Source: an uncultured bacterium (GTDB lineage: Bacteria > Bipolaricaulota > Bipolaricaulia > RBG-16-55-9 > DRJF01). From it: 64,000 bases of DNA. Location of the stretch: positions 13,732 through 77,731 of the forward strand of contig CAJXGD010000002.1 of assembly GCA_913053845.1 (NCBI GenBank), read 5' to 3'. The notes below the pieces were generated by a model. It ran no database searches. It was not told the origin of the DNA and worked only from the letters and a program-made list of their open reading frames with translations. The number at the start of each line of letters is the position of its first letter. Within the stretch, counting starts at the first letter, position 1. Below, in pieces: positions 12,805-43,670 of this stretch. Made by a program: the position numbers and the translations under genes.

Positions 12805-13770
12805 CTAGCTCGAGCGCAAGGCTGGCAGCACCTCATGCAGGAATCTCTCTAACTGCTCCTCCTGCGCGAAGGAGGCGAAGCGGACGATGATCGTCCCCGC
12901 TCCCGCCTGAGCGTACTGCCGGATGCGTGCTATAAGCCCTTCAGCAGGACCATAGGGTCCCCAGAGACCCTGCCAGATGTTCATGCCATAATAGTTGACG
13001 ATGAAGCGATCGGCTTCCTTCTCCGCCCGGTCTTTATCCCGGTTCAGGTTGACCGTCAGGTAACAAGCCGTCTCCATCCGGCCAAAATCTTTACCCAATT
13101 GCTGGGTGTGATGCCGGACTCTGGCGATGATCTGGGCGTAGGCCTCCGGAGTCTCGCTGATCGAAATCAAGCCGTCACCCAGCTCAGCCGCCCGCCGGAA
13201 CTGCGCCTCCTGACCGGCCCGCAAGTGGCAAGCCAAGAGGATTGGCACCCCTCCCCGCCGGATCGGCCGGGGCTCAAGATGGACACTATCAAGCTTGAAG
13301 TGCTGCCCGCGGAAAGAAACCTGCTCTTCAGAGCCCAAGCGTTTCAGGAGATAGACCAGCTCCTCCAGCCGCTGGGCTCGCCGGGAGGGCTCTACCCCCA
13401 CGGCCTGCCATTCGCGCCTCTGGGCTTCGTTAAACGCTCCGCCTACCCCGACGGCCAGCACCAGCCGACCTTGGGAGATCAGATCGAGGGTATGGGCAGC
13501 CTGGGCCAGGAGCAGCGGATGCCGCATGGCAGCCAGTAGCACCGCCGTGCCCAGGCGCACCCGACCGGTGCGCGCGGCCACCGCTGCCAGCACTGTCAGC
13601 GGCTCCAAGCGCGGCTTGGCCAGCAGGCTGTCGCCCACCCAGACCGAATCCAGCCCGGCCTGCTCGGCCCGTTCGGCCAGGCGGAAGATCAAGTCAGCAT
13701 CCGGGTCGCCTCGCAGCAACACCCCACGGGTGGGCAGGAGTAAGCCCAATTTGACTTGATCGGCGCTCAT
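12805..13770 (-). CDS. LLM-class (luciferase-like) oxidoreductase, probably F420-dependent. Last gene of the F420 operon.
   Basis: GLDSVWVGDSLLAKPRLEPLTVLAAVAARTGRVRLGTAVLLAAMRHPLLLAQAAHTLDLISQGRLVLAVGVGG is the LLM TIM-barrel signature. ATGA overlap with the cofC stop. Confidence 0.75.
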   Translation of the reverse strand: MSADQVKLGLLLPTRGVLLRGDPDADLIFRLAERAEQAGLDSVWVGDSLLAKPRLEPLTVLAAVAARTGRVRLGTAVLLAAMRHPLLLAQAAHTLDLISQGRLVLAVGVGGAFNEAQRREWQAVGVEPSRRAQRLEELVYLLKRLGSEEQVSFRGQHFKLDSVHLEPRPIRRGGVPILLACHLRAGQEAQFRRAAELGDGLISISETPEAYAQIIARVRHHTQQLGKDFGRMETACYLTVNLNRDKDRAEKEADRFIVNYYGMNIWQGLWGPYGPAEGLIARIRQYAQAGAGTIIVRFASFAQEEQLERFLHEVLPALRSS

Positions 13771-14396
13771 GTTATAGCTCTCCCTTCTTCGGTCAGCAGT
13801 CTGCTCAGCAGGACTGGGTCCCTGCTCTGGTATGCTTGCAGGTCTTCAGCGGTATCCAGGTCGCAGCTCAGCCCCAGACGCTCGCAGACGGCCACTGGTA
13901 GCCCCAGTTCACCCGCCTGGCTCAGGTGCCTCTGAAAACTGTCCGGCCCCAGAGCGGGCCAAAAGTCCGTTCCCACCGGGGCCAAAATGGCGTTGGTCCC
14001 TCGGCAGTGACGATCGGGTGCGAGGACTATCTTGGCAAAATTACCGGAGGCCACAACCAGCGCCCGGAGGTCACCGGCCGTGATGAAGGGCAGATCACCC
14101 GGCAGATAGAGCGCCGCTCTGCCCCGCTTCCAGGCTCTATCAAAGGCCCACTGCAAAGCGGCATTGAGACCTATGCCCTGCCCCGCCTGCCAGCAGGCTC
14201 CCCGCTCCAGGGCCGGCTGACGCACTCTCTCCCCACCGCCGACTACCCAGACTTCGCCTAGAGAAGCTCCCGCCGTCGCTTGCAGGACGCGTCTCAGCAT
14301 ATTGGCCGCCAGGTTCATCCGGCTCAAGGGGTCCAGCTCGGTGGCCAGGCGCGATTTAGCGCGTGCCAAGGGCTTCATGGGGATCACGGCGATCAT
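13767..14396 (-). CDS. cofC: 2-phospho-L-lactate guanylyltransferase CofC
   Basis: MIAVIPMKPLARAKSRLATELDPLSRMNLAANMLRRVL is the CofC/FbiD N-terminal motif (IP-K-AKSRL). MobA-like NTP-transferase fold. 6 nt downstream of cofD. Confidence 0.75.
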   Translation of the reverse strand: MIAVIPMKPLARAKSRLATELDPLSRMNLAANMLRRVLQATAGASLGEVWVVGGGERVRQPALERGACWQAGQGIGLNAALQWAFDRAWKRGRAALYLPGDLPFITAGDLRALVVASGNFAKIVLAPDRHCRGTNAILAPVGTDFWPALGPDSFQRHLSQAGELGLPVAVCERLGLSCDLDTAEDLQAYQSRDPVLLSRLLTEEGRAIT

Positions 14397-14402
14397 CCGA
14401 GA

Positions 14403-15341
14403 TCACGCCCGCAGCAGACGCAGGAGCAAATTGGCCAGCTCGACTCGGTCTTGATCGCTGCTCATGACCGTCTGAGCGATCTCCACCTGCAAGCCCAGCT
14501 CGCTAATGGCCTGTGCCTGATCAGCATCCTGCTCGTCTATGACGAAGATGTCGCAGAGCCCCAGGTACTGCCGCGCTGCACCCAGGCAGGAGATCTCATA
14601 GCCCAGCTCGCCCAGCAGCTTGCCGGCCGGACCACGCAACGCCTGGCCGTGCACGATGGGGCTTACTGCCAGCCGCGGGCCACGCGAGAAGCTGGCGATC
14701 CGGTCTCTCAGCCCTGCCAGCGCCAGGATCGGCGCAATGGAGAGAAAGGGGTTTGAGGGACAAAAGATCAGCCCGCTAGCCTGCTCCAAGGCCTGGGCAA
14801 ATTCGGGCGCTGGGCGGGCGTCCCCCGCTCCCTCGAAGCGCAAAGAGTGCACTTGGGGTCGGCAGCGGCACGCCACAAAATAGCGTTGAAAAGAGAGCTC
14901 GCCCTCGTCGGTGATCACGACGGTGCGCAGGCGCTCATCGCTCATGGGCACGACCCTATGCTGCACTCCCAAGCTCTGGCAGAGCCTGCGGGTAACCTGA
15001 GAGAGACTCTGACCTGCGCTGAGCAACCGGCTGCGCTGGATGTGAGTGGCCAGGTCGCGATCTCCCAGCTTGAACCAGCTAGGGGCTCCATAGTGAGCCA
15101 TCATATCTAGCACATTGAAACTGTCGCCTTCAATCCCCCAGCCGGTCTGGGGATTGGCCAGGCCGGCTAGGGTGTACATCACCGTGTCCAGGTCGGGCGA
15201 GACGTGCAAATCATAAAATTCCTCATCGTCGCCGGTGTTGACCACGATGAGCAGCTCTTCAGGGGGAAGAACCTGAGCCAGACCCCAGGCCAGCTTAGCC
15301 CCACCCACGCCGCCTGCCAGCGCCAGCAGCGGACAGTTAAT
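14403..15341 (-). CDS. cofD: 2-phospho-L-lactate transferase CofD. The start codon is uncertain: ATT at 15339-15341 is proposed, and the first canonical GTG at 15308 lies inside the conserved Gly-rich motif.
   Basis: The conserved N-terminal motif LALAGGVGGAKLAWGL extends upstream of the GTG at 15308. The rest matches CofD/LPPG:Fo transferase. GGGGGAG Shine-Dalgarno 4 nt before the ATT. Confidence 0.85.
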   Translation of the reverse strand: MNCPLLALAGGVGGAKLAWGLAQVLPPEELLIVVNTGDDEEFYDLHVSPDLDTVMYTLAGLANPQTGWGIEGDSFNVLDMMAHYGAPSWFKLGDRDLATHIQRSRLLSAGQSLSQVTRRLCQSLGVQHRVVPMSDERLRTVVITDEGELSFQRYFVACRCRPQVHSLRFEGAGDARPAPEFAQALEQASGLIFCPSNPFLSIAPILALAGLRDRIASFSRGPRLAVSPIVHGQALRGPAGKLLGELGYEISCLGAARQYLGLCDIFVIDEQDADQAQAISELGLQVEIAQTVMSSDQDRVELANLLLRLLRA

Positions 15342-15342
15342 C

Positions 15343-16650
15343 TTACTCCCCCTGCTCGCCTGAGGCTTGTGCCTGCCGATAACGGAAGCGCTCCATCCGG
15401 ATCAGTTGAGAATAGGAGCCGAAGCGCTCCGCAGTGATCCCATCTATCTGATCCAAGGGTTCAGCAGGATCGTCGGATGGCCGATCGAAGACGCGGCGAA
15501 TCTGGTAGGTGGTAGAACGCTCGGCGGGGATGCGTCCGGCGGCCCGGATCAGTCGCCTAAACTCGGCCGGGCGCATCAGTTGGCCATTCTGCGCTCCGGC
15601 AGAGGTGGAGATGCTCTCATTGATCAGTGTGCCACCCAGGTCGTTGGCTCCGGCTGACAACAGGATCTGTCCCAGACGAGGCCCCTCCTTGACCCAGGCC
15701 ACTTGCAGATTGGGGATCCAATTGCCCAGCATCAGCCGGGCTACGGCGTGGACCCTCAGGATCTCCAGACCAGAGGGACCGGGGCGCACCCCTGCCACCA
15801 GGCCGTGCCGGACCATAGGCGCCTCGGAATGTACAAAACTCAAGGGCACGAACTCGGTAAATCCCCCGGTTGATCGCTGGATATCGCGCAACAGCGCCAG
15901 ATGGCAGGCCACCTGCTCAGGGGTCTCCAAATACCCGTACATCATGGTGCAGGTGGTGGGAATGCCCAGCTCATGCGCCGTAGTGATCACTTCGACCCAG
16001 TGCTCGACGCTGATCCGCCCGCGTGAGACCCGGTCGCGCAGCCCTTGATCGAGTATCTCGGCCGCGGTGCCGGGCAGGGAGCCTACCCCGGCCGCCTGTA
16101 AAGCCTGCAAGTACTCTTTGACCGAGCAGCGCGAGCGCAGAGCGCCGTAGAGAACCTCTTCAGGAGAAAAGCCATGAATGTGAATCTCTGGCACTTCGGC
16201 TTTGACCGCTTCGCAGATGCGAATATATAGATCGCCTTTCATCTGGGGCGGAAGACCGGCCTGGATGCAGACTTCGGTCGCCCCAAACTCCCAGGCCTCT
16301 TTGGCCCGCCGGGCAACCTCACTGAGCGGCAAGAAATAGCTCTCTTCTTCTTGATAGTCGCGGCTGAAGGCGCAGAAGCCACAGCGCTTGATGCAGACGT
16401 TGGTGAAGTTGATATTGCGGTTGACCACGTAGGTCACCCGCTCCCCCACCTGGCGGCGGCGCAGCTCATCGGCAGCGCTGATTAGTGTCAAGAGCTCGCG
16501 CCCGGTGCTGCCCAAGAGCCGGCGGGCCTGCTCGGCGGAGATGTCTTGGCCTTCCAGGGCCCGGCCCAGCGCCCGGGCCAGCGGAAGCTCAAGGCCAGAC
16601 AACAACTGTTCCAGGGGGGCTCCGGCGAACTCATCGTGAGGCGCTGGCAT
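15343..16650 (-). CDS. cofH: FO synthase subunit 2, CofH (radical SAM)
   Basis: NINFTNVCIKRCGFCAF radical-SAM cluster motif, identical in style to the CofH half of FbiC. Alternative upstream start at 16665. Confidence 0.85.
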   Translation of the reverse strand: MPAPHDEFAGAPLEQLLSGLELPLARALGRALEGQDISAEQARRLLGSTGRELLTLISAADELRRRQVGERVTYVVNRNINFTNVCIKRCGFCAFSRDYQEEESYFLPLSEVARRAKEAWEFGATEVCIQAGLPPQMKGDLYIRICEAVKAEVPEIHIHGFSPEEVLYGALRSRCSVKEYLQALQAAGVGSLPGTAAEILDQGLRDRVSRGRISVEHWVEVITTAHELGIPTTCTMMYGYLETPEQVACHLALLRDIQRSTGGFTEFVPLSFVHSEAPMVRHGLVAGVRPGPSGLEILRVHAVARLMLGNWIPNLQVAWVKEGPRLGQILLSAGANDLGGTLINESISTSAGAQNGQLMRPAEFRRLIRAAGRIPAERSTTYQIRRVFDRPSDDPAEPLDQIDGITAERFGSYSQLIRMERFRYRQAQASGEQGE

Positions 16651-17959
16651 ATCGTTCCATCCCACCTTTCAGGTAGCCCGCCGAGTCTGCCAGGGGGCGA
16701 ACGCGCTTCAGCAGCCGAGCGGGCAGGTAATCTCTTTCTTCGATGATATATTCTGGATAGACTGGCAGACGGGCTTTCAGGGTGAAACCCAGCTCTTCCG
16801 TCCGGCAGCGCAGCTCGGTGATCTGGGGCCAGGGGGCCTCCGGGTTGACATAATCTATTGTCAAAGGCGAGATTCCTCCCCAATCGTTGATGCCGGCTCC
16901 TAGATAGAGGGGATAATCGCCGGCGCTCAAATTGGGGGGGGCCTGCAAATTAACTTCGGGCCCCAGGATCAGCCGGGCGGCGGCGATCGTCCAGAGCAAC
17001 TCCTCCAGCGTCGGCTCCGGGACTGCGCTCATGGGTGTATCCGGCTTGGCGCGGAAGTTCTGGATGATCACCTCCTGGATGTGACCGTAGCGACGATGAA
17101 GCTCGCGGATGGCCAGGAGCGATTTCACCCGCTCGGCTCGCGTCTCGCCGATGCCGATCAGCAGGCCAGTTGTAAAGGGAATTCTTAGCTCTCCCGCGAG
17201 CTCGATCGTCAGGTGCCGCACGCGAGGTCGCTTGCTGGGGGCGTGCTGGTGCGGCCCTCCGGGGGCGGCCAGGCGCGGACTAATATTTTCTAGCATCAGA
17301 CCCATCGAGACATTGACATCTTTGAGCGAGCTCATCTCTCGGCGGGAGAGGGTGCCCGGATTGGCATGGGGCAGCAGCGTCGTCTCATTTAAGACCAGCT
17401 CGCATGCAGCTCTGAGATATTCCAGTGTGGTCTGGTAGCCGTGCTGCTGCAGCCATTTTTTCGCCTCCGGATAGCGCAACTCCGGCCGCTCGCCCAAAGT
17501 AAAGAGCGCTTCGGAGCAACCCAGCCGCTGGCCGGCGCGGGCCACTGCCAGCACCTCCTCGAGGCTCAGATACAGGGGTTCAGCCTGAGCGGGCGAGCGC
17601 CGGAAAGCACAGTAGCCGCAGAAGTCGCGGCAGAGCTGGGTGAGCGGGATGAAGACCTTGGGCGAGAAGCTAATCACCCGGCCGCGGCCCTGATCCCGCA
17701 GGATGGAGGCCGCCTGACAGAGGGAAGGCAGCTCTGCATAAGTTGCTTCGGCCAAGAGATAGGACTGCTCCTCGCTAAGCCCCCGGCACTCTAGAGCCGC
17801 GCTTACGGTCTGCTGCAAGCGATCGCTCAGGATCGCGAACCGGTCCGTGTCCCTCCCTCCGGTGAGGACCTTACCCCAGCGGGAGTAACCGGCTAGAACG
17901 CTTTTGTCTCTAGAGAACTTCCCCACTTTGGATTTCAGGTTCATCCATCGACCTCCCAA
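16631..17959 (-). CDS. cofG: FO synthase subunit 1, CofG (radical SAM)
   Basis: LCRDFCGYCAF radical-SAM motif as in the CofG half of FbiC. First gene of the cofGHDC operon. AT-rich promoter region upstream at 17960-18079. Confidence 0.85.
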   Translation of the reverse strand: MGGRWMNLKSKVGKFSRDKSVLAGYSRWGKVLTGGRDTDRFAILSDRLQQTVSAALECRGLSEEQSYLLAEATYAELPSLCQAASILRDQGRGRVISFSPKVFIPLTQLCRDFCGYCAFRRSPAQAEPLYLSLEEVLAVARAGQRLGCSEALFTLGERPELRYPEAKKWLQQHGYQTTLEYLRAACELVLNETTLLPHANPGTLSRREMSSLKDVNVSMGLMLENISPRLAAPGGPHQHAPSKRPRVRHLTIELAGELRIPFTTGLLIGIGETRAERVKSLLAIRELHRRYGHIQEVIIQNFRAKPDTPMSAVPEPTLEELLWTIAAARLILGPEVNLQAPPNLSAGDYPLYLGAGINDWGGISPLTIDYVNPEAPWPQITELRCRTEELGFTLKARLPVYPEYIIEERDYLPARLLKRVRPLADSAGYLKGGMERYASASR

Positions 17960-25912: not shown

Positions 25913-25921
25913 GATTCCGTC

Positions 25922-33120: not shown

Positions 33121-33169
33121 CGCATCCTCCTTTGAACACTCGGGGCCACGCTGAACTCATGCACGAGGT

Positions 33170-35270: not shown

Positions 35271-35271
35271 T

Positions 35272-36291
35272 TCAACTTACCAAGGGAAGGATTTCCCTGG
35301 CAAAACGTTCGACTTGGCCGAATTGATCCAACGAGCCGAAGCGGCAGATGAAGTAGTTGACTCCCGCAGCCTTGAAGTCCTGAATCCACTGGGCGATCTG
35401 CTCGGGCGTGCCCACTGGCCCCCACTCTCCTAGATCCATCGCTTGACTCAGTTCCGGATAGTAAGTGTGAATGTACTTTTCAAGTCCACGCTGCGCTTCG
35501 TCCTGGCTATCTGCCACGTTCATCGTGACCTGATATGCCATGGTGTAGTCAGAAAGATCACGTCCTTCTTCGCTCACTGCCTCAGCGATCCGTTCACGTT
35601 GGGCGCTGAACTCCTCTGGATGACGCGCTCGACAGCAGGTCATCCAACCATTCCCGTAGCGAGCAATACGCCGTGAAGCCCTATCGATCACGCGCCGAAC
35701 GCTTTCTTCAGTCACCTTGCTGGGGATCAACCGTGGATTGCTGACCACCCAGGTGGACGGGGGTTGCTGAATCGGCATGATAGGGCCCATTTCCGTCCCC
35801 GAATAGAACGAGATATCATCGTACTGGAAATATCTACCGTGGAAGTCGACTTTGCCCGTAGTCCACAGGTCGCGTAGCACGACCAAGCCTTCCTCAAAGA
35901 TGTCAGCTCTTTTGGAGAAATCGAGCTGGAGGGCTTGGTACTCCCTGCGCACCCCTTCTTCAGGGCTGCCCATGCACGCACCTAAGATCGTGCGACCGTT
36001 GGAAAGCACATCTAACGTAGCCCACTCCAATGCTAGATAGAGCGGGTTTCGCGTGGCGGTGACCAGGCAACCTGTGCCCAAACGAACTCTTGAGGTTCGC
36101 TGGGAGAGCGCGGCCAACAACTGTAAGGGTTCGTAACGCGGCTTGGAAAACAAGCTGTCCCCAACCCAAACGGAGTCAAACCCCTTCTCTTCCACGACCA
36201 CAGAAAGATCAAGTAAGTCGTTCAAGGTATAGACCTCTGCAAGGAGGGGTTCACGATTGTTGACATTGACGCCGAATTTAACCATAATCAC
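35272..36291 (-). CDS. LLM-class flavin/F420-dependent oxidoreductase
   Basis: GFDSVWVGDSLFSKPRYEPLQLLAALSQRTSRVRLGTGCLVTATRNPLYLA, the same signature as the F420-operon LLM at 12805. Confidence 0.75.
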   Translation of the reverse strand: MIMVKFGVNVNNREPLLAEVYTLNDLLDLSVVVEEKGFDSVWVGDSLFSKPRYEPLQLLAALSQRTSRVRLGTGCLVTATRNPLYLALEWATLDVLSNGRTILGACMGSPEEGVRREYQALQLDFSKRADIFEEGLVVLRDLWTTGKVDFHGRYFQYDDISFYSGTEMGPIMPIQQPPSTWVVSNPRLIPSKVTEESVRRVIDRASRRIARYGNGWMTCCRARHPEEFSAQRERIAEAVSEEGRDLSDYTMAYQVTMNVADSQDEAQRGLEKYIHTYYPELSQAMDLGEWGPVGTPEQIAQWIQDFKAAGVNYFICRFGSLDQFGQVERFAREILPLVS

Positions 36292-36301
36292 CTCGTTATA
36301 G

Positions 36302-36997
36302 TCATTTGGATTGGGTCAGAGTCCCATGATTGTGAGAGGTCCATGCATCGATGGGCTGTTCGATAGCTTCCCTCTCGATAGCTTCCCTCGGCACTCGAAT
36401 GTGCTCCGCCATCAAGTGTGCGGCCTCATCGGGCTCCGAGCGCTTCACCGCGTTCAAGATCGCCTCGTGCTCACTCTTAGAGTTGTCAATTCCACGGCGC
36501 AGCATGAGAGATTTCAACCGGTATCGTTTCAAGTGGTCCATCAACTGGGCATACATATCTTGGAGGAATTGGTTCCCCGACCGCTCGACGAATAAAGCGT
36601 GGAACTGAGCGTTCAACCGGAAATATTCATCGATGTTTTCGTTCTGTCCTTCAACTCCCATACGCTTTTGCAAACGGTGGAGCGTTTCCAAATCATCCTG
36701 GGAGATCTGCGGTACAGCAAGTCTCACTGCTAACGCTTCTAACGCTTCACGCACTTGAACGAACTCTAGAAACTCTTCCGGGCTAAGCACCGCGACGATG
36801 GCACCGCGACGAGGATAAATAGTCACTAGCCCTTCCACAGCAAGCGCTTGGAGCGCTTCGCGAATAGGTGCTCTGCTAATGTGCAAACGTTCCGCCAGGC
36901 TGACTTCACGCAGACGCTCCCCCGGGGTGAGCCGATGGGATAAGATTTCTTCCTTCAGGTGCTCGTATACCTGTTTGCTTAATGTACGTTTCTCCAT
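36302..36997 (-). CDS. GntR family transcriptional regulator (FadR/FCD subfamily)
   Basis: N-terminal wHTH (LSKQVYEHLKEEILSHRLTPGERL.E..LAERLHISRAPIREAL) plus a C-terminal FCD domain. Start chosen at MEKRTLSK. Confidence 0.8.
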   Translation of the reverse strand: MEKRTLSKQVYEHLKEEILSHRLTPGERLREVSLAERLHISRAPIREALQALAVEGLVTIYPRRGAIVAVLSPEEFLEFVQVREALEALAVRLAVPQISQDDLETLHRLQKRMGVEGQNENIDEYFRLNAQFHALFVERSGNQFLQDMYAQLMDHLKRYRLKSLMLRRGIDNSKSEHEAILNAVKRSEPDEAAHLMAEHIRVPREAIEREAIEQPIDAWTSHNHGTLTQSK

Positions 36998-37012
36998 GGT
37001 ATTGAGTTCTTC

Positions 37013-37028
37013 CCTTAGATTGTCGACA
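37013..37028. promoter_or_regulatory. candidate autoregulatory GntR operator
   Basis: CTTAGATTGTCGACA lies 16-31 nt upstream of the gntR start and is identical to the motif at 27131. Confidence 0.4.
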
Positions 37029-37271
37029 ACATGCAGTATACCAAAACGTCCTCCCAATGTCAAGGGCGAGAGTTGGTGCGCCAAGAGATCAGCTACAGTC
37101 GCAGACAGCTCCCTGGGGAACTGTGGCATCGGGAGTTGGTCGCGGCTTATTAGCCTGGGTCTGCTCTCTGCTCCTCGTCAAGCTCCTTGCCCGCTAGAAG
37201 CCGCGCTTACCGCTGTGATAGGGGCCATACGCCCCTACAGTCGGAGGCGACATGAGGAATAAGATTTAGCA

Positions 37272-38753
37272 TTAGAACTTTCTCGTCCATTCTTTGGGCC
37301 AGCGCTCGATGACCACTTTGCTTTGGGTGAAGAACTCCACGGCGTCGCGACCTTGCCCGTGCAAGACACCGAAGAAACTCTCCTTCCAGCCGCTGAAGGG
37401 GAAAAAGGCCATCGGGGCCGCCACGCCGATGTTGATGCCGATGTTCCCCGCTTGCGCCTCGTAACGGAATTTGCGCGCCGCTGCACCGCTATTAGTGAAT
37501 AAGCAGGCCATGTTGCCATACTTCGCGTTGTTGACGAAAGCGATCGCGTCGTCCACGCTCTTCACGTGCATGATACCCAAGACCGGGCCGAAGAGCTCAG
37601 TGCTGGCAATCTTGCCCTCGGGTGGGATGCCATCTAAGACGGTGGGGCGGATAAAGTTGCCTTGTTCGTAGCCACGAATGGATGCCTTTCTCCCATCCAC
37701 GACCACTTTGCCACCTTCGTCTACTCCCTGTTGGATCAGCCCCTCGATGCGGGCTTTGCTCTGTGGGGTGATCACCGGCCCCATCTCGACGCCGTCATCG
37801 AGGCCATAGCCTACCACGCGATCCCTGGCTGCATCTGCAAGGGCTGCACTGAACCACTCGCGGGCCTCACCCACGGTGATGGCCAGCGAGCCGGCCAAAC
37901 AGCGCTGCCCAGCGTTCCCGAAGAAGCTGTCAGCGGCGATGCGGGTGGTCATCTCCATCTCCGCATCCGGTAAGATGATCAGCGGGTTCTTGGCTCCTCC
38001 ATTCGCCACGACACGCTTTCCATTGGCCGCCGCACGGCTGTAAATATGCTTGGCCACAACCGTGGAGCCGACGAAGCTGATCACCTGAATCAGGGGATGA
38101 TCGAGGATGGCATTGACGGTGTCGGGACCACCGTTCACCAGATTCACTACGCCACTCGGGAAACCAACCTCTTCTTCGAGCAGTTGGAAAATCCTTTGCA
38201 TCGTCATGGGAGTTCGCTCGGAAGGTTTAACGAGGTAGGTGTTCCCGGTCGCCAGCGCATAAGGCATATACCAGAAAGGAACCAAAACGGGGAAATTAAA
38301 GGGTACGATGGTGGTCGCCACGCCCACCGGCTGTCGAATCATGAATTCGTCAATGCCACGGGCGATGTCCTCCGAGTTGTATCCCTGCATCAAGATGGGG
38401 ATGCCACAAGCTACCTCGACGTTCTCAATTGCCCGACGCATCTCTCCTCGCGATTCATCCAGGGTCTTGCCATTTTCCATCGTGATGAGACGCGAGAGTT
38501 CCTCGAAGTGTTCCTCGAGTAAGTTCTTCAACTTGAAGAGATACTGGACGCGCTCAACGGCCGGGGTATGTCGCCAGTCGTCGAAGGCGGCCGCGGCAGT
38601 CTGCGCGGCCTGGTCCACCTCCGCTGCCGGGGAGAGTGGCACTCGCGTCAGCAACTCTCCGGTGGCGGGGTTGTTCACCTTCAGGGACTCCTGAGCAGTC
38701 GAACGCTGCCACTGGCCATTGATGTAGTTAAGCAGTTGTTCGTCGTTTACCAT
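37272..38753 (-). CDS. mmsA: CoA-acylating methylmalonate/malonate-semialdehyde dehydrogenase
   Basis: [34 protein letters not shown] matches the MmsA hallmark (ITPFNFPAMIPLWMFP...KPSE). Catalytic Cys region GQRC. AAAGGAGGA ribosome-binding site before the ATG at 38753. Confidence 0.85.
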
Positions 38754-38793
38754 CGGTCCTCCTTTAAGGCTATCTGACACGACATACTATCAC

Positions 38794-39795
38794 CTAAGAA
38801 CTGAACTCAGGGATGATGCTCCTCCCGTACTCCTCCACGATGTGCTCCTCCTCGCCACACATCAGATAGATGTTAAACTGCGACACCCCGATCTCTGCCA
38901 ATTCCTTGAGCCTGGCGATGTGAGCGTCCACCGGGCCATTGAGGCCAAAGGAATCAATGATCTCATCGGAGATGAAGCCCAGATGGCCGGCGTCCTTGTC
39001 GGCATGTCGTAGGTAGTCATATCCCTTTCGACCTTCGATGGAGTCGGCCAGGTGTTTGGGAATAACCTCCCCTGACTTACCATATTTCTCTACCAGGTCG
39101 GCCACATGGTTGCCTACCATGGCCGGGAACCAGCGAATCTGCGCCCGCCCTTCGTCCAGATCATCGGAGAGCCATACCGGCGCTGCGGACATCACGCTTA
39201 GCTTGTTAGGATCTTTCCCAGTTGCTTTGGCAGCCTCCTTCGCCTGACCTGAGAACCATTTGACCAACCAGGGGTCGGCCAACTGGATGATCAAACCGTC
39301 GCCATGTTCCCCGGCGACCCGAAGCGCCTTGGGGCCATAAGCGGCAATCCAGATGGGCACATTCTCCGCAGCCCAGGGGAACTTTACCTCCACGCCATCG
39401 AGTTTGACGACTTTGCCCTGCGTCAGCGTGCGCACCGTCTCCACGCATTCGGCCAGGTGCTGCAACGTCATCGGTTTACGATGGAGCACGCGCCGCGAAC
39501 TGTCCCCTCGCCCGATGCCCATGGTCACCCGTCCACCGCTCAGTCGGCTCATCGCGGCGAACAGGCTGGCCGTGACCGTCCAATCGCGCACGCCGGGGTT
39601 GGTCACACAGGTGCCAAACCGTAGCTTCTCCGTGTGAGCTATGCAGTAGGACATCGTGGCATAGCATTCTTGCCAGAGCACGTGGCTGTCGAAGAACCAA
39701 GCATGCTTGAACCCCGCCGCCTCCGCCTGCCGGCACAGCGCCACCGTCCGCTGGGGTTCCATGTCACCTTTGAAGGTAATCGCAAATTCCATAAA
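38794..39795 (-). CDS. LLM-class flavin/F420-dependent oxidoreductase
   Basis: TIM-barrel LLM pattern (GFKHAWFFDSH ... GGRVTMGIGRGD). Start chosen at MEFAITFKG. Confidence 0.7.
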   Translation of the reverse strand, partial: FMEFAITFKGDMEPQRTVALCRQAEAAGFKHAWFFDSHVLWQECYATMSYCIAHTEKLRFGTCVTNPGVRDWTVTASLFAAMSRLSGGRVTMGIGRGDSSRRVLHRKPMTLQHLAECVETVRTLTQGKVVKLDGVEVKFPWAAENVPIWIAAYGPKALRVAGEHGDGLIIQLADPWLVKWFSGQAKEAAKATGKDPNKLSVMSAAPVWLSDDLDEGRAQIRWFPAMVGNHVADLVEKYGKSGEVIPKHLADSIEGRKGYDYLRHADKDAGHLGFISDEIIDSFGLNGPVDAHIARLKELAEIGVSQFNIYLMCGEEEHIVEEYGRSIIPEFSS

Positions 39796-39823
39796 TCCCC
39801 CCCTTAATGACTTAAATATTTCT

Positions 39824-41131
39824 TTAATCCACCAACGTATCCACCCAGCTGAGCGCCTGATCCAAGCCGCGCAGGCCCTCGTCAATCTGCGCCTCGCTGA
39901 TGATCAGCGGCGGGGCGATGATCAAGGTATTGATCATGCCGACCATGTAGACGCCGCCGGCCAAGGCCTTGCCTGTGGCCTGCGCCAGCACGCTGGGGCC
40001 ACCCTTGACCTTGACGCCGTACTCGTCGAACGGTTCCTTGGTTTTGCGATCCTTGACCAGCTCCACGCCGCAGAACAGGCCTACGCCGCGCACCTCACCC
40101 ACACAGGGATGTCGCGCCTGGAGCTGGCGTAGCTTGTCGAGTAGATAGTTGCCCTTCCGCTTGGCCGCCGGGATCAGCTGCTCATCTTCGTAGATCTGGA
40201 TCGTCTCCAGCGCCGCGGCCACGGTCATGGGGTGGCCGGAGTAGGTGTGCCCGAGATTAAAGAAATTATCATTGAAGTGCGCTGCGATCTCCTCATTGAC
40301 AATCGTGCCTGCCAGCGGCAAATAGGCCGCAGTGATGCCCTTCGCCACGGCCATGATGTCGGGCACCACCTCCCATAGGTCGCAGGCGAACCACTCGCCG
40401 CAGCGTCCGAAGCCGCTCATCACCTCATCGGCGATGAGCAAGGCGCCATGCTTGTGGCAGATCCTAAGCAATTCGGGCAGGTACTCCGGCGGTGGGACCA
40501 GGATGCCGTTCGAGCCCACCACCGGCTCGACGATCACCGCGGCCACGGTGTCGCCTTCGAGGGTGAGCATCTCGTCAATGTAGTCCAACGTCTTCATCAC
40601 GCTGCCGAAGACGGTGCGATACTCATAGGGATCGGGAGCTTTGAGGATGCCAGGGATGGCCGGTTCGGTGGCCCAGCGCCGCGGGTCGCCGGTGAGCGCG
40701 ATCGAGCCGCAGGTCGAACCATGGTAGGAGCGATAGCGTGAGATGATCTTCTGCTTCCCGGTGAACCAGCGTGCGATCATCAGTGCTGCCTCGATGGCCT
40801 CAGTTCCACCGGGGGAGAAGAACGTTTTACACAGGTCACCCGGCGTGATCTCGGCCAGCTTCTTGCCCAACTTGGCGCGGGCTTCGCAGGTAAAGCCGGG
40901 CGCGATATAGGCAAACTTGCTTGCTTGCGCTTGAATCGCGCGGTTGAGGCGTTCGTTTTTATGACCCAACTGCGAGCACATCAATTGGGAAGAGAAGTCC
41001 AGATAGCGCCGGCCCTCGGCGTCGGTGAAGTACACCCCTTCGGCAGCGACAATTTGCTTGGGATGAACGTTCTTCTGGAACGACCAGGTGCCAAACACGT
41101 ACTGTTGGTCCATCTGCTCGATCTCGTTCAC
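39824..41131 (-). CDS. class III (omega) aminotransferase, beta-alanine/pyruvate-type
   Basis: Aspartate aminotransferase family fold III. DEVMSGFGRCGEWFA PLP-lysine region. Confidence 0.85.
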   Translation of the reverse strand: MNEIEQMDQQYVFGTWSFQKNVHPKQIVAAEGVYFTDAEGRRYLDFSSQLMCSQLGHKNERLNRAIQAQASKFAYIAPGFTCEARAKLGKKLAEITPGDLCKTFFSPGGTEAIEAALMIARWFTGKQKIISRYRSYHGSTCGSIALTGDPRRWATEPAIPGILKAPDPYEYRTVFGSVMKTLDYIDEMLTLEGDTVAAVIVEPVVGSNGILVPPPEYLPELLRICHKHGALLIADEVMSGFGRCGEWFACDLWEVVPDIMAVAKGITAAYLPLAGTIVNEEIAAHFNDNFFNLGHTYSGHPMTVAAALETIQIYEDEQLIPAAKRKGNYLLDKLRQLQARHPCVGEVRGVGLFCGVELVKDRKTKEPFDEYGVKVKGGPSVLAQATGKALAGGVYMVGMINTLIIAPPLIISEAQIDEGLRGLDQALSWVDTLVD

Positions 41132-42531
41132 GCCAGCCCTCCTTGGGGTGCGGCATTGAGCAGTTCGCTCGAGATGGTCCGCTCGACGAATTTGCCGCGG
41201 CCACGCTCAGCCTTCAGTTCCCCCTCTTCCACGATGACCTCGCCGCGCGAGATGGTGATCACCGGCCAGCCGGTCAGCTCCCGCCCCTCGTAGAGGCTGT
41301 AGTCCGAGTTGCTGTGCATGGCTTCAGCCGTGACCGTCCTCTTGAGCTGGGGATCGACGATCACGATGTCGGCATCCTTGCCCACCTCGAGCGAGCCCTT
41401 GTGCTGCAAGCCGTGAATCTTGGCGGTGTTTTCGCTGAGCAGTTGCGCCAGACGGCTCAGCGAGATGCGGCCTTGGTTGACCCCTTCGCTGAACATATAG
41501 GGCAGCAGCGTCTCCACACCCATGCCGCCGTTGGGCACCTTGGAGAACAGCTCCCGGCCCAGCAGCTTCTGCTCGGTGCTGAAGGGGCAGTGGTCCGTGC
41601 CCATACAGGGAATGTCCCCCCTCTCGATACCGCTCCACAGCGCCTCGTTGTCCTTCTTGAGACGCATTGGTGGAGTCATGATGTAGTTCAGGCCGTCCTC
41701 TTGCGCGTAAACGTCTTTGGTGAATTCTAGATATTGCGGACAGGTCTCCATCATGATCGGATAGCCCTGGTGCTGAGCCTGACGCAGATGATTCAAGCCT
41801 TCTTCGGTGCTCAGATGCACCACGTAGAGCGCTGAGCCGGCCGCCTTGGCCAGCTCAATCGAGGTGGCAATCGAAGTGCCTTCCACGAAGTTGGGCCGGC
41901 TGTCGTAATGCTGCATCCAGGAGACCTTGCCCCGGGCCTCCTGCTCTTGCATCAGCTGCTCCACCACATCAGCGTTCTCAGCATGAATCAACACCAGGCC
42001 GTTGTGCCGGTGCGTCTCCTGCAGCATCTTGAACAAGAAGCCGTCGCCCACGTGAAAACCCTCGCGCTTGTAGGGCAAAAAGAGCTTGAAGGTCGGCATG
42101 CCCAGCTCGATTAGCTTTTGGACGTAATCCAAGTTCTGTTGAGTCTCAGTAGTAAAGCTGGGATGAAAGCTGTAATCCACCACCACTTTTGGCTCAGCCA
42201 GCTCGCGGCGCGCCTGGATGTGATCCAGAATGTCTACGTCCTTACCATGAATGGCAAAGTCAATAACTGAAGTGACCCCGCCGAAGGCAGCAGCCACCGT
42301 GCCTTGGTAGAAGTCATCGGCCGAGATGGTGCCCTGAAACGGCAGCTCCAGGTGCACGTGAGGGTCAATCGCGCCCGGCAGCACCACTTTACCGGTCGCA
42401 TCGATGGTGCGTTTGCCTTCAAGCTTGTCCTCACTAAGGATAGCAATCTCTTCGCCACGCACGCCTAGCGAGCAGTTCCGTACCCTACCGGGCGTGACCA
42501 CCTTCCCGTTCGCAATCACCAGATCGTACAT
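41128..42531 (-). CDS. dihydropyrimidinase/D-hydantoinase (cyclic amidohydrolase)
   Basis: GAIDPHVHLELPF ... carboxylated-Lys region ... amidohydrolase-superfamily metal ligands. 467 aa, typical of the family. Confidence 0.85.
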   Translation of the reverse strand: MYDLVIANGKVVTPGRVRNCSLGVRGEEIAILSEDKLEGKRTIDATGKVVLPGAIDPHVHLELPFQGTISADDFYQGTVAAAFGGVTSVIDFAIHGKDVDILDHIQARRELAEPKVVVDYSFHPSFTTETQQNLDYVQKLIELGMPTFKLFLPYKREGFHVGDGFLFKMLQETHRHNGLVLIHAENADVVEQLMQEQEARGKVSWMQHYDSRPNFVEGTSIATSIELAKAAGSALYVVHLSTEEGLNHLRQAQHQGYPIMMETCPQYLEFTKDVYAQEDGLNYIMTPPMRLKKDNEALWSGIERGDIPCMGTDHCPFSTEQKLLGRELFSKVPNGGMGVETLLPYMFSEGVNQGRISLSRLAQLLSENTAKIHGLQHKGSLEVGKDADIVIVDPQLKRTVTAEAMHSNSDYSLYEGRELTGWPVITISRGEVIVEEGELKAERGRGKFVERTISSELLNAAPQGGLA

Positions 42532-42555
42532 GAGCCTCTCCTTTCTTCTTTTGTC

Positions 42556-43425
42556 CTACAGTTCGACGAGCTGGCTGTAGAGGTCCGGGCGGCGGTCACG
42601 GAAGAACTGCCACACCTTACGCACCTCTGCGATTTGATCCAGATCCAGATCTGCTACCAATACCTCGTCTTCGTCCTCACCGGCTTGGGCGACGATCTGG
42701 CCGCGAGGATCACAGAAATAACTGGAACCGTACCACTTGCCGATGTCCCATGGTTGTTCATGACCCACCCGATTGATCGCGCCCACGAAGTACTGGTTGG
42801 CCACAGCGTCTGCGGGTTGTTCCAACTTCCAGAGGTATTGGCTCAAGCCAGCCACGGTAGCCGAAGGATTAAACACGATCTCTGCTCCACCCAGGCCCAG
42901 AGCACGCGCGCCTTCGGGGAAATGGCGATCGTAGCAGATATAAACTCCCACTTTACCGAACTGGGTTTGGAATACGGGATAGCCCAGATTCCCAGGCCGA
43001 AAGTAGAACTTTTCCCAAAACCCTGGCTTGCAGTGAGGGATATGGGTCTTGCGGTACTTACCGAGGTAGGTGCCATCCGCATCTATCACCGCAGCGGTGT
43101 TGTAGTAGACGCCCGTCATGTCTTCCTCATAGACCGGAACGATCATTACCATTCCATGTTTCTTGGCCACTTCTTGCATAAGCCGAGTGGTTTCCCCCTC
43201 AGGGACCTTCTCGGTAAGGTCGTACCAGCGGGTACTCTGCTCCGCGCAGAAGTATGGTCCGTAGAACAATTCCTGCAAGCACAGCATCTGGACGCCCTGT
43301 TGCGCAGCCTGCTCGATGAGCTTGAGGTGCTTCTCGATCATGTTGCGCTTGATAACCTCGTTGGATTCGGTTACCGGTGTGTTGAGAGAGGCTTGGATGA
43401 GCCCTCCCTTGACAACTCTGGCCAT
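42556..43425 (-). CDS. carbon-nitrogen hydrolase (nitrilase superfamily): N-carbamoyl amidohydrolase/beta-ureidopropionase-like
   Basis: Catalytic triad context E(LQELF)...GKYRKTHIP...VYICYDRHFPE. Resembles D-carbamoylase and beta-alanine synthase. Confidence 0.8.
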   Translation of the reverse strand: MARVVKGGLIQASLNTPVTESNEVIKRNMIEKHLKLIEQAAQQGVQMLCLQELFYGPYFCAEQSTRWYDLTEKVPEGETTRLMQEVAKKHGMVMIVPVYEEDMTGVYYNTAAVIDADGTYLGKYRKTHIPHCKPGFWEKFYFRPGNLGYPVFQTQFGKVGVYICYDRHFPEGARALGLGGAEIVFNPSATVAGLSQYLWKLEQPADAVANQYFVGAINRVGHEQPWDIGKWYGSSYFCDPRGQIVAQAGEDEDEVLVADLDLDQIAEVRKVWQFFRDRRPDLYSQLVEL

Positions 43426-43670
43426 AATGCCTCCTTGCTATAGCCCTTAGCGGTCAACATGCGCTTTTCGCTTGGGCTTTCTCAGCTATGGGGTTAGCGC
43501 AGTATACAACTAAATTTTTCCTGGAGTCAAGGGCAGGTTGTGCTGGCACCTCTCCAGTTTGAGGATCATAGCCTTCTTCCCAGCTTAGCGGTTACCCTAT
43601 TGATCTTGCCGGGCAAACGTGCTAGACTAAACCTGTGCCAGGTAAGCGGTAGCAACGGGGGTGATCGGCC

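What the first reader, a model, noticed from the sequence alone, without database searches (positions are those of the whole stretch)
35272..43425. Pyrimidine or hydantoin-type reductive catabolic module lacking a dihydropyrimidine dehydrogenase, but with two LLM-class (F420-type) oxidoreductases
The hydantoinase/dihydropyrimidinase, the nitrilase-type N-carbamoyl amidohydrolase, the omega-aminotransferase and the CoA-acylating MmsA together form the last four steps of reductive uracil/thymine degradation. The first step, a PydA/PreAT-type FeS flavoprotein, is absent from the window. Instead, two luciferase-like (LLM) oxidoreductases sit inside the module at 35272-36291 and 38794-39795. They carry the same signature as the LLM gene that terminates the adjacent cofGHDC F420 operon. 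This could mean that an F420H2-dependent reductase performs the ring reduction. Alternatively, the LLMs could act as RutA-like pyrimidine oxygenases. Either would be a non-canonical entry into the pathway.
Basis: inference. Interest (0 to 1): 0.7.

Follow-up and report, generated by a model that had tools for sequence, protein, structure and literature searches.

The report
F420-type reductase replacing dihydropyrimidine dehydrogenase
A five-gene operon for breaking down uracil and thymine lacks the usual first enzyme and carries in its place a coenzyme-F420-type reductase of unknown function, and this pairing recurs in dozens of unrelated bacteria, which points to an undescribed way of starting pyrimidine breakdown.

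Summary
One operon on the minus strand (43425-37272) encodes a beta-ureidopropionase-like CN hydrolase, a dihydropyrimidinase, a class-III aminotransferase, an LLM oxidoreductase (LLM2, 39792-38794) and CoA-acylating MmsA. LLM2 belongs to NCBIfam TIGR03842, an F420-dependent LLM family with no assigned function. Its nearest solved relative is Mer.

No PydA/PreAT homolog occurs in the 64 kb window or in 80 related loci. In those loci, TIGR03842 genes have a dihydropyrimidinase within 10 kb in 43 of 80 and as the immediate same-strand neighbour in 26. The CN hydrolase, MmsA, the aminotransferase and pyrimidine or nucleoside transporters are often nearby. The linkage also holds in Actinomycetota. 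The best reading is an F420H2-dependent uracil/thymine reductase that replaces PydA. This rests on gene context and is untested.

The second LLM (35272-36291) is not part of the module. It belongs to a separate conserved operon (GntR, LLM, NicX-like, cupin, aldolase II, Mo-hydroxylase) with its own promoter-like site. The RutA-like reading is rejected. I found no publication describing an F420-dependent dihydropyrimidine dehydrogenase.

The parts
43501..43530 (-). Promoter-like site (TTGACT-18-TATACT) about 75 nt upstream of the first gene of the operon
   Evidence: The total number of promoter-like sites in the region is no higher than in shuffled sequence, so only the position is suggestive.
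42556..43425 (-). Nitrilase-superfamily N-carbamoyl-beta-amino-acid amidohydrolase (beta-ureidopropionase-like, PydC role)
   Evidence: PF00795, 223 bits. Best solved relatives are Drosophila beta-alanine synthase 2vhh (213 bits) and human beta-ureidopropionase (202 bits); N-carbamoyl-D-amino-acid hydrolases score only about 98 bits. Orthologs (56-62% identical) lie within about 1 kb upstream of TIGR03842 genes in 16 of 80 loci and are the immediate same-strand neighbour in 15. No NCBIfam model is passed; aguB scores 260 bits against a cutoff of 410.
41128..42531 (-). Dihydropyrimidinase / D-hydantoinase (PydB role)
   Evidence: TIGR02033, 444 bits against a cutoff of 393. Best solved relative is D-hydantoinase 1yny, 353 bits. 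Its stop overlaps the aminotransferase start by 4 nt.
39824..41131 (-). Class-III (omega) aminotransferase, inferred beta-alanine / beta-aminoisobutyrate aminotransferase
   Evidence: PF00202, 330 bits; NF004718, 481 bits against a cutoff of 472. Best solved relative is taurine:2-oxoglutarate aminotransferase 6jix, 312 bits. The substrate is inferred from context only.
38794..39792 (-). LLM2: TIGR03842-family, F420-class luciferase-like oxidoreductase; proposed F420H2-dependent uracil/thymine reductase (PydA role)
   Evidence: TIGR03842, 448 bits against a cutoff of 295. All solved relatives with E<=1e-5 are F420 enzymes; best is Mer 1z69. The AF2 model (pLDDT 85.8) superposes on Mer-F420 with TM 0.82. 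The start ATG at 39792 is preceded by AAGGGGGG.
37272..38780 (-). CoA-acylating malonate/methylmalonate-semialdehyde dehydrogenase (MmsA); the likely start is near 38753
   Evidence: TIGR01722, 519 bits against a cutoff of 448. A 493-aa product was called in independent assemblies. Orthologs lie near TIGR03842 genes in 21 of 80 loci and directly downstream of one in L090 (69% identical).
12805..17959 (-). cofG-cofH-cofD-cofC plus a third LLM: F420 biosynthesis genes that supply the cofactor (they support the proposal but are not part of the operon)
   Evidence: Pfam Radical_SAM/CofH_C, CofD, CofC, Bac_luciferase. cofE and fno were not found in the window.

Best explanation
The operon at 43425-37272 (minus strand) is a complete reductive pyrimidine (Pyd) catabolic pathway. 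The canonical Fe-S flavoprotein dihydropyrimidine dehydrogenase (PydA / PreAT) is replaced by a non-homologous TIGR03842 luciferase-like enzyme that uses reduced coenzyme F420.

Proposed steps:
1. LLM2 transfers a hydride from C5 of F420H2 to C6 of uracil or thymine, with protonation at C5. The product is 5,6-dihydrouracil or dihydrothymine. This step is inferred.
2. The dihydropyrimidinase opens the ring. This assignment is by family membership.
3. The nitrilase-type amidohydrolase releases beta-alanine or beta-aminoisobutyrate plus NH3 and CO2. This is inferred from similarity to beta-ureidopropionases.
4. The class-III aminotransferase produces malonate or methylmalonate semialdehyde. This is inferred.
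5. MmsA produces acetyl-CoA or propionyl-CoA. This assignment is by family membership.

F420 would be supplied by the cofGHDC genes of the window. It would be re-reduced by an Fno- or FGD-type enzyme encoded elsewhere in the genome.

The neighbouring LLM at 35272-36291 is unrelated to this pathway.
For: 1. Every step except the first has a candidate enzyme in one tightly packed operon, with gene spacings from a 4-nt overlap to about 40 nt.
2. No PydA, PreA or PreT homolog occurs in the 64 kb window, in the 80 species-level loci carrying a TIGR03842 gene, or in the three plasmid loci searched (L082-L084). The only hit was a 60-aa ferredoxin-like fragment in one locus. The further loci L085-L099, which include L090 and L094-L096, also lack one.
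3. In the 80 loci (59-77% identical LLM), a dihydropyrimidinase (TIGR02033, 542 bits) lies within 10 kb in 43, is the immediate same-strand neighbour in 26, and lies within two genes in 38. The CN hydrolase is the immediate same-strand neighbour in 15. MmsA is present in 21 and the aminotransferase in 22. At least one of these four genes is present in 51 of 80.
4. Gene order differs between lineages while the linkage is kept. The window has CNhyd-DHPase-AT-LLM-MmsA. Anaerolineae have MmsA-c5-CNhyd-LLM-DHPase. Actinoallomurus has CNhyd-DHPase-LLM-NCS1 permease-PucR. Streptomyces sp. BHT-5-2 has CNhyd-AT-...-DHPase-LLM. Two dihydropyrimidinase lineages, only about 35% identical to each other, are both linked to the LLM.
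5. In L090 the LLM (75% identical) lies between fno/cofE/cofGHDC on one side and MmsA, a cytidine deaminase, a PNP_UDP_1 nucleoside phosphorylase and a Bmp nucleoside ABC transporter on the other.
6. F420 dependence is supported in several ways. LLM2 passes the TIGR03842 cutoff. Only F420 enzymes appear among its solved relatives by sequence, and they fill the top 26 structural matches. The family is the last gene of cofGHDCE-npdG operons on Paracoccus and Leisingera plasmids.
7. LLM2 is not a Mer. The catalytic Glu6 of Mer (E6Q retains 0.4% of kcat, PMC11094777) aligns with Thr, Val or Cys in TIGR03842. Asp96, which contacts the pyrimidine ring of the pterin in Mer, is the invariant D of the GRGDS motif.
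8. There is a chemical precedent. A putative F420/FMN oxidoreductase (SSGG-03002/NpsU) is genetically required for C5-C6 reduction of the uracil ring in mureidomycins (PMC10714638). Separately, a putative F420 LLM was proposed to replace the PydA-like reductase in uric-acid catabolic clusters of Chloroflexota (PMC12507026).
Against: - No biochemical or genetic data exist for any TIGR03842 member. The assignment rests on gene context and elimination.
- 29 of 80 loci show none of the four Pyd genes within 10 kb.
- Of the five closest homologs examined (71-77% identical), four (L001, L002, L091, L092) sit next to dihydropteroate synthase instead; the fifth, L090 (75%), sits in the nucleoside/F420 context of point 5 above.
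- S. venezuelae and the alphaproteobacterial copies have no Pyd genes nearby.
- Many of the 80 loci come from one class (Anaerolineae), so the counts are not independent events.
- A canonical PydA could be encoded elsewhere in the genome; I could not test this.
- Known F420-dependent LLMs mostly act on alcohols/carbonyls or on imines, not on C=C bonds of heteroaromatic rings (this rests on my own knowledge of the family).
- No candidate C5 proton donor has been identified.
Confidence: 0.62

Rival explanations
1. LLM2 acts on a different ring of similar shape rather than on free uracil or thymine. Candidates are another unsaturated cyclic ureide or imide, such as a 5-substituted uracil, a purine-derived intermediate like the 'yanthine' of the reductive uric-acid pathway, or an alkylidene-hydantoin. 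The hydantoinase and carbamoylase would then process the reduced ring.
For: D-hydantoinases/dihydropyrimidinases accept many substrates, and the best solved relatives of the window enzyme are named D-hydantoinases. A putative F420 LLM has been proposed for yanthine reduction in Chloroflexota. The CN hydrolase passes no equivalog model.
Against: The CN hydrolase is much closer to beta-ureidopropionases than to D-carbamoylases. The aminotransferase and MmsA match the fate of beta-alanine and beta-aminoisobutyrate. Contexts that include a cytidine deaminase, a PNP_UDP_1 nucleoside phosphorylase and an NCS1 permease with PucR point to pyrimidines. None of the uric-acid-pathway domain families named in PMC12507026 (PF00185 for YgeW, PF00291 for YgeX, or an SsnA-type amidohydrolase) appeared in the Pfam results for the window ORFs or for the cluster representatives I annotated; most other conserved neighbour clusters were not annotated.
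Confidence: 0.13
2. LLM2 is an F420-dependent carbonyl reductase for a late step, for example malonate semialdehyde to 3-hydroxypropionate in the manner of PydE, RutE or YdfG. The true first enzyme would be encoded elsewhere.
For: Characterized F420 LLMs (Adf, FGD, hydroxymycolate dehydrogenase) are alcohol/carbonyl oxidoreductases, and they appear among the relatives of LLM2. LLM2 lies directly next to MmsA in the window and in L090.
Against: The tightest and most frequent partner is the dihydropyrimidinase (43 loci), not the aminotransferase (22) or MmsA (21). Many loci keep only the LLM-dihydropyrimidinase pair. Where MmsA is present, a semialdehyde reductase would be redundant. No PydA is linked to any of these clusters.
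Confidence: 0.1
3. LLM2 is a Mer-like methylene-tetrahydropterin (folate or H4MPT) reductase. Its presence in Pyd clusters would then be incidental.
For: Mer is the closest characterized relative (114 bits with the single sequence, 159 bits with the family profile; TM 0.82). Four of the five closest homologs lie next to dihydropteroate synthase. An MtrA-like pterin-binding gene lies at 59749-60873.
Against: LLM2 falls below both Mer model cutoffs (130 bits against 349, and 143 against 276). The catalytic Glu6 of Mer is replaced by Thr, Val or Cys. A pterin role gives no reason for a dihydropyrimidinase to lie within 10 kb in 43 of 80 loci. In L091, L092 and probably L002 the gap to DHPS is about 300 nt, which suggests separate transcription.
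Confidence: 0.05
4. The LLMs are RutA-like FMN-dependent pyrimidine oxygenases.
For: They belong to the same superfamily, PF00296.
Against: RutA (TIGR03612, cutoff 498) is not among the 25 matches listed for LLM2 and scores 42 bits for LLM1. No RutB-F-type genes are in the window. FMN-dependent LLMs rank below all F420 enzymes in the structural search. A Rut-type ring cleavage would leave the dihydropyrimidinase and the carbamoyl amidohydrolase without a substrate.
Confidence: 0.01

Closest known systems
Reductive pyrimidine degradation (Pyd) pathway: PydA (dihydropyrimidine dehydrogenase; NAD(P)H-dependent PreAT/DPD, or ferredoxin-dependent PydAc, PMC7332683), PydB and PydC, followed by an aminotransferase and a semialdehyde dehydrogenase
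   Same: PydB is present by family membership, and the nitrilase-type hydrolase most resembles eukaryotic-type beta-ureidopropionases. The downstream aminotransferase and MmsA are also present. All are clustered in one operon, as in canonical Pyd clusters.
   Different: There is no DHO_dh-like FMN / 4Fe-4S PydA. An unrelated TIM-barrel LLM that would use a diffusible deazaflavin hydride carrier stands in its place. If this is correct, F420H2 would be a third type of electron donor for this step, after NAD(P)H and ferredoxin.
Mer, the F420-dependent 5,10-methylene-H4MPT reductase (PDB 1z69, 8qpl)
   Same: Mer is the closest characterized homolog, about 25-28% identical. It shares the LLM TIM barrel, the conserved VTNP region, and the Asp (the D of GRGDS) that contacts the pyrimidinone ring of the pterin in Mer. 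It is also a reductase that uses F420H2.
   Different: The catalytic Glu6 is absent (Thr, Val or Cys instead). LLM2 falls below the Mer model cutoffs. It has a family-specific insertion (RKGYDYxHH) that Mer lacks. Its genomic context is pyrimidine catabolism, not C1 metabolism.
The putative F420-dependent LLM 'yanthine reductase' noted in uric-acid catabolic clusters of Chloroflexota (PMC12507026, 2025; bioinformatic only)
   Same: The idea is the same: an F420 LLM (PF00296) replaces a PydA-like reductase for the reductive dearomatization of a uracil-type ring, and Chloroflexota are the main carriers.
   Different: That is a different pathway (purine/uric acid, with SsnA, XdhD, YgeW/X/Y). No sequences were given there, so I could not test whether the LLM subfamily is the same.
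SSGG-03002 / NpsU, a putative F420/FMN oxidoreductase of mureidomycin and napsamycin biosynthesis (PMC10714638)
   Same: It is genetically required for reduction of the C5-C6 double bond of a uracil ring.
   Different: It is biosynthetic tailoring of a uridyl peptide, not catabolism. In vitro activity was not obtained, and I did not test its fold class or its relation to TIGR03842.

Membership tests
TIGR03842 (LLM class F420-dependent oxidoreductase, CPS_4043 family; function unassigned) | Whole-protein score above the NCBIfam curated cutoff | tested here: met
   448.3 bits against a cutoff of 295.45, full-length match 1-329/329.
TIGR03842 (LLM class F420-dependent oxidoreductase, CPS_4043 family; function unassigned) | Luciferase-like (beta/alpha)8 barrel closest to F420-binding members | tested here: met
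   AF2 model with pLDDT 85.8 and pTM 0.87. The top 26 Foldseek PDB matches are all F420-dependent LLMs; the best is Mer-F420 1z69 with TM 0.82.
TIGR03842 (LLM class F420-dependent oxidoreductase, CPS_4043 family; function unassigned) | The host can make F420, and the enzyme binds F420 rather than FMN | tested here: inconclusive
   cofG, cofH, cofD and cofC are in the window, but cofE and fno were not seen. Relatives lie beside or inside cof/fno operons. Actual cofactor binding cannot be tested with these tools.
Mer (5,10-methylenetetrahydromethanopterin reductase) | Score above the equivalog cutoffs (TIGR03555, NF002619) | tested here: not met
   129.6 bits against 348.7, and 143.2 against 276.
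Mer (5,10-methylenetetrahydromethanopterin reductase) | Catalytic glutamate at the end of beta-1 (Glu6 in jMer) | tested here: not met
   It aligns with Thr in the window protein, Val in Streptomyces and Cys in alphaproteobacteria. E6Q retains 0.4% of kcat in jMer (PMC11094777).
PydA / PreA-PreT dihydropyrimidine dehydrogenase | DHO_dh-like FMN domain with 4Fe-4S clusters (plus the GltD-like FAD/NAD(P)H subunit or domain) | tested here: not met
   tblastn with E. coli PreA and PreT found no homolog in the window, the 80 loci or plasmid loci L082-L084, nor in L085-L099, which include L090 and L094-L096. LLM2 has only PF00296. LLM2 may work like PydA, but it is not a member of that family.
Reductive Pyd gene cluster | PydB dihydropyrimidinase | tested here: met
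   TIGR02033, 444 bits against a cutoff of 393.
Reductive Pyd gene cluster | PydC beta-ureidopropionase | tested here: inconclusive
   No NCBIfam equivalog is passed. The best solved relatives are beta-alanine synthase/beta-ureidopropionase (202-213 bits), about level with N-carbamoylputrescine amidase (204 bits). D-carbamoylases score about 98 bits.
Reductive Pyd gene cluster | Downstream beta-alanine aminotransferase and malonate/methylmalonate-semialdehyde dehydrogenase | tested here: inconclusive
   MmsA is met (TIGR01722, 519 bits against 448). The aminotransferase is assigned to its class only, and its substrate is inferred.
RutA pyrimidine oxygenase (Rut pathway) | TIGR03612 score above the cutoff, and presence of rutB-G partner genes | tested here: not met
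   RutA is not among the 25 matches listed for LLM2. It scores 41.8 bits for LLM1 and 58.6 bits for LLM3 against a cutoff of 498.3. No Rut partner domains are in the window.

The most novel reading that the evidence does not exclude
TIGR03842 proteins are the first F420H2-dependent dihydropyrimidine dehydrogenases. They would be a non-homologous replacement of PydA that is widespread in Chloroflexota, Actinomycetota and candidate phyla. The same family is the only F420 client gene built into the mobile cofGHDCE-fno operons of Alphaproteobacteria. Pyrimidine-ring reduction may therefore be the reason those bacteria acquired F420.
Probability: 0.5. Interest if true: 0.72.

Novelty: new variant of a known kind. 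Interest (0 to 1): 0.6.

Why it matters
- It would give a function to a large, highly conserved family. NCBIfam release 20 (June 2026) still lists the family as a hypothetical equivalog with no assigned function.
- It would add nucleobase catabolism to the few known physiological roles of F420 in non-methanogenic bacteria.
- It would be a third electron-donor solution for the first step of pyrimidine breakdown, after NAD(P)H and ferredoxin.
- Metabolic reconstructions that call the Pyd pathway absent or incomplete when pydA is missing would need revising for Chloroflexota, Actinomycetota and several candidate phyla.
- The hypothesis can be tested directly with one purified enzyme and F420H2.

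Tried and rejected
1. RutA-like oxygenase: rejected on model scores, absence of partner genes and the F420-type relatives.
2. Both LLMs as one module: rejected. Homologs of LLM1 (68-81% identical) sit in GntR-LLM-NicX-cupin-aldolase II-Mo-hydroxylase clusters with no Pyd genes. A strong promoter-like site precedes the GntR gene.
3. The neighbouring cluster (18-37 kb) as the Chloroflexota variant of the reductive uric-acid pathway (PMC12507026): considered because it has an XdhA-like Mo enzyme, an FAD subunit, an M20 peptidase and an LLM. It lacks SsnA, YgeW and YgeX, so I did not file it there.
4. Hydantoin/D-amino-acid production: less likely, because the CN hydrolase is beta-ureidopropionase-like.
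5. Mer-like pterin reductase: weakened by the missing catalytic Glu.
6. Literature: ten full-text searches. Nine of them (F420 combined with dihydropyrimidine, uracil, dihydrouracil, PydA, TIGR03842, CPS_4043 or hydantoinase) looked for an F420-dependent PydA and found none. The tenth, for the Mer E6Q mutant, returned only irrelevant hits. The Selengut and Haft 2010 paper that defined these families is not held in the library.
7. The metagenome scan with the window's dihydropyrimidinase returned only 5 loci. Two were useful (L095, L096).

Full report
What is in the sequence. Every gene from 43425 down to 12805 lies on the minus strand. Family scans give the following assignments:
- 42556-43425: a carbon-nitrogen hydrolase (PF00795, 223 bits).
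- 41128-42531: a dihydropyrimidinase (TIGR02033, 444 bits against a cutoff of 393).
- 39824-41131: a class-III aminotransferase (NF004718, 481 bits against 472).
- 38794-39795: a luciferase-like (LLM) protein that passes the TIGR03842 'LLM class F420-dependent oxidoreductase' model (448 bits against 295).
- 37272-38780: CoA-acylating methylmalonate-semialdehyde dehydrogenase (TIGR01722, 519 bits against 448).
- 35272-36291: a second LLM, whose best model is TIGR03619 at 128 bits, below its cutoff of 167.

The five genes from the CN hydrolase to MmsA are packed tightly. The dihydropyrimidinase stop overlaps the aminotransferase start by 4 nt. The LLM2 start is an ATG at 39792, 8 nt after AAGGGGGG and 31 nt after the aminotransferase stop codon. 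A promoter-like site lies at 43530-43501. The same gene order appears in two independent assemblies from other samples, so it is not an assembly artefact.

No canonical first enzyme. tblastn with E. coli PreA and PreT (taken from NC_000913.3) found nothing in the 64 kb window. Pfam scans of every ORF of at least 180 aa showed no DHO_dh-type or GltD-type protein. The rest of the genome could not be searched.

The two LLMs are different, and only one belongs to the operon. LLM1 (35272-36291) and the LLM that ends the cofGHDC operon (12805-13770) are 33% identical. LLM2 matches either of them only weakly, at 21-28% identity over partial alignments. LLM1 is 100% identical to a protein of a 'Candidatus Fraserbacteria' MAG and has many homologs at 68-81% identity. 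In three unrelated genomes those homologs sit in the same arrangement as in the window: GntR/FCD, LLM, NicX-like (PF26233), Cupin_2, class II aldolase, and the Mo-hydroxylase subunits. None of these loci has pyrimidine genes nearby. The window has the matching cupin at 33877-34263. The GntR gene most likely starts at 36997. It is preceded by TTGACA-17-TATACT at 37063-37035, inside the 275-nt gap after MmsA. Independent gene calls give the matching 231-aa product. LLM1 is therefore the second gene of a separate, conserved operon of unknown function.

What LLM2 is. All eleven solved proteins that match it at E<=1e-5 are F420-dependent LLMs: Mer, hydroxymycolate dehydrogenase, Adf and FGD. Mer is the best at 114 bits. 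An AlphaFold2 model (pLDDT 85.8, pTM 0.87) superposes on Mer-F420 (1z69) with TM 0.82. The first 26 structural matches are all F420 enzymes, and FMN-dependent LLMs follow them. LLM2 is nevertheless not a Mer:
- It falls well below both Mer model cutoffs.
- The Mer catalytic glutamate is not conserved. Glu6 of jMer, whose E6Q variant retains 0.4% of kcat (PMC11094777), aligns with Thr in the window protein, Val in Streptomyces and Cys in alphaproteobacterial members.
- Asp96 of jMer, which contacts the pyrimidine ring of the pterin, corresponds to the invariant Asp of GRGDS. Phe233 corresponds to the invariant Met of WFPAMVGNH.
- The family has an extra conserved segment (RKGYDYxHH) that Mer lacks.

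Comparative context. A scan of one genome per GTDB species found at least 597 loci encoding a relative. The best 80 (59-77% identical) were fetched with 10 kb flanks. They come mostly from Anaerolineae and other Chloroflexota, plus Eremiobacterota-type and Fraserbacteria MAGs. I used tblastn with the window proteins and de novo clustering of neighbouring ORFs:
- A dihydropyrimidinase (TIGR02033, 542 bits) lies within 10 kb in 43 of 80 loci. It is the immediate same-strand neighbour in 26 and lies within two genes in 38.
- An ortholog of the window's CN hydrolase (56-62% identical) lies within about 1 kb upstream in 16 loci and is the immediate same-strand neighbour in 15.
- MmsA is present in 21 loci and the aminotransferase in 22.
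- An NMT1/NitT-TauT-type ABC transporter is present in 21.
- 51 of 80 loci have at least one of the four core genes.

The commonest layout is aminotransferase (opposite strand), then MmsA, a 120-aa unknown ORF, the CN hydrolase, the LLM and the dihydropyrimidinase. None of the 80 loci holds a PreA or PreT homolog.

The linkage extends to Actinomycetota. Streptomyces sp. BHT-5-2 has CN hydrolase, aminotransferase, further genes, dihydropyrimidinase and LLM (44% identical). Actinoallomurus has CN hydrolase, dihydropyrimidinase, LLM, an NCS1 (cytosine/purine/uracil-type) permease and PucR. In L090 the LLM (75% identical) lies between fno, cofE and cofGHDC on one side and MmsA (69%), a cytidine deaminase, a PNP_UDP_1 nucleoside phosphorylase and a Bmp nucleoside transporter on the other. 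Gene order differs between lineages. Two dihydropyrimidinase lineages that are only about 35% identical are both linked to the LLM. That argues for selection on the linkage rather than inheritance of a single arrangement.

Close relatives of the window's own dihydropyrimidinase (L095, L096) carry CN hydrolase, dihydropyrimidinase, aminotransferase and an aldehyde dehydrogenase, with no reductase of any kind nearby. L096 comes from the same metagenome as L091, where a 71%-identical LLM2 homolog lies elsewhere. In that organism the reductase may simply be unlinked from the rest of the pathway.

Counter-evidence:
- 29 of 80 loci show no Pyd gene within 10 kb.
- Of the five closest homologs examined (71-77% identical), four sit next to dihydropteroate synthase (L001, L002, L091, L092). 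The fifth, L090 (75%), sits in the nucleoside/F420 context described above.
- The S. venezuelae copy stands alone.
- On Paracoccus and Leisingera plasmids the gene is the last member of a cofG-cofH-cofD-cofC-cofE-npdG operon. In Paracoccus it is followed by a NitT/TauT-type ABC transporter that is only distantly related to the one in the Chloroflexota clusters.
- The 80 loci are phylogenetically clustered, so the counts overstate the number of independent events.

Interpretation. Every step of the reductive pathway except the first has an enzyme in the operon. The only unassigned gene is a redox enzyme that would use a low-potential hydride carrier. Its tightest partner across three phyla is the enzyme of the second step, and canonical PydA is absent from all these neighbourhoods. 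The most economical reading is that TIGR03842 enzymes reduce uracil or thymine to the 5,6-dihydro form with F420H2, as a non-orthologous displacement of PydA (confidence about 0.6). Two precedents make this plausible:
- Chemistry: a putative F420/FMN oxidoreductase is genetically required for reduction of the uracil C5-C6 bond in mureidomycins (PMC10714638).
- Concept: a 2025 paper noted that uric-acid catabolic clusters in Chloroflexota carry a putative F420 LLM where other bacteria have a PydA-like reductase (PMC12507026).

F420 and NAD(P)H have similar redox potentials (established knowledge), so F420H2 can serve as the hydride donor.

The rivals, in order of likelihood, are a related heterocycle as the true substrate, a late-step carbonyl reductase, a Mer-like pterin enzyme, and a RutA-like oxygenase. 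They are scored in the rival-explanations section. The last two are contradicted by tests made here.

Novelty. Nine full-text searches aimed at an F420-dependent dihydropyrimidine dehydrogenase found no such paper and no function for TIGR03842. A tenth search, on the Mer E6Q mutant, returned nothing relevant. NCBIfam release 20 (June 2026) still classes the family as 'hypoth_equivalog', and current RefSeq names carry no function. A paper on M. smegmatis remarks that not all genes of its reductive uracil pathway have been identified (PMC4617892). I did not test whether M. smegmatis has a TIGR03842 member. I classify the finding as a new variant of a known kind of pathway, supported by context only. 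The module boundaries, the role of the second LLM and the RutA alternative do not.

Noticed in passing
window 18080-36997 (minus strand): A separate conserved cluster: GntR/FCD, LLM1, NicX-like (PF26233/M29), Cupin_2 (33877-34263), class II aldolase, Mo-hydroxylase large subunit (30856-33120), a Bmp-type ABC transporter (25922-30886), Aminotran_5, SDR, MBL, 3HCDH, FAD_binding_5 subunit, M20 peptidase and an unknown ORF. The core GntR-LLM-NicX-cupin-aldolase-Mo-hydroxylase is syntenic in Bipolaricaulia and Chloroflexota genomes (L085, L087, L088). The function is unknown; it is possibly catabolism of a pyridine-type or other N-heterocycle.
   Followed up: partly
window 18000-38000: G+C drops to 0.50-0.55, against 0.60-0.68 in the first 18 kb and 0.55-0.63 beyond 44 kb. 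Homologous LLM1 clusters elsewhere are flanked by transposases (L085, L087). This suggests the cluster arrived by horizontal transfer.
   Followed up: no
window 12805-17959: A cofG-cofH-cofD-cofC operon ending in a third LLM (best model TIGR03619, 151 bits, below the cutoff of 167), which is 33% identical to LLM1. cofE and fno were not found in the window.
   Followed up: partly
L082 4587-11002 and L083 4510-11002 (Paracoccus alcaliphilus and Leisingera plasmids): TIGR03842 is the terminal gene of a cofG-cofH-cofD-cofC-cofE-npdG operon on alphaproteobacterial plasmids. It is therefore the only F420-using enzyme built into a mobile F420 biosynthesis cassette. No Pyd genes lie within 10 kb.
   Followed up: partly
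L001 1578-2411; L002 11067-12086; L091 9306-10091; L092 9298-10083: Four of the five closest LLM2 homologs examined (71-77% identical) are followed by dihydropteroate synthase rather than by Pyd genes. This is either a lineage-specific coincidence or a hint of a pterin link. It remains unexplained.
   Followed up: partly
L004 7493-7855 and 17 other loci: A conserved ORF of about 120 aa with no Pfam or NCBIfam match lies between MmsA and the CN hydrolase in 18 of the 80 related loci. It is absent from the window.
   Followed up: no
L009 2017-2406 and 6 other loci: A '23S rRNA intervening sequence protein' (PF05635) gene is inserted between the TIGR03842 gene and the dihydropyrimidinase in 7 loci.
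   Followed up: no
L068 8107-9897 and 6 other loci: A 596-aa protein with a cyanophycinase-like region (105 bits, below the cutoff of 127) lies directly upstream of the TIGR03842 gene in 7 loci.
   Followed up: no
window 59749-60873 (+): A gene combining an MtrA-like domain (tetrahydromethanopterin S-methyltransferase subunit A, PF04208) with PterinBD-DUF4346. This is unusual in a non-methanogen.
   Followed up: no
window 43671-44789 (+): A 372-aa ORF with no family match lies between the Pyd operon and coaBC. An independent assembly also calls a gene of similar length in the equivalent position (L100 2075-3136).
   Followed up: no
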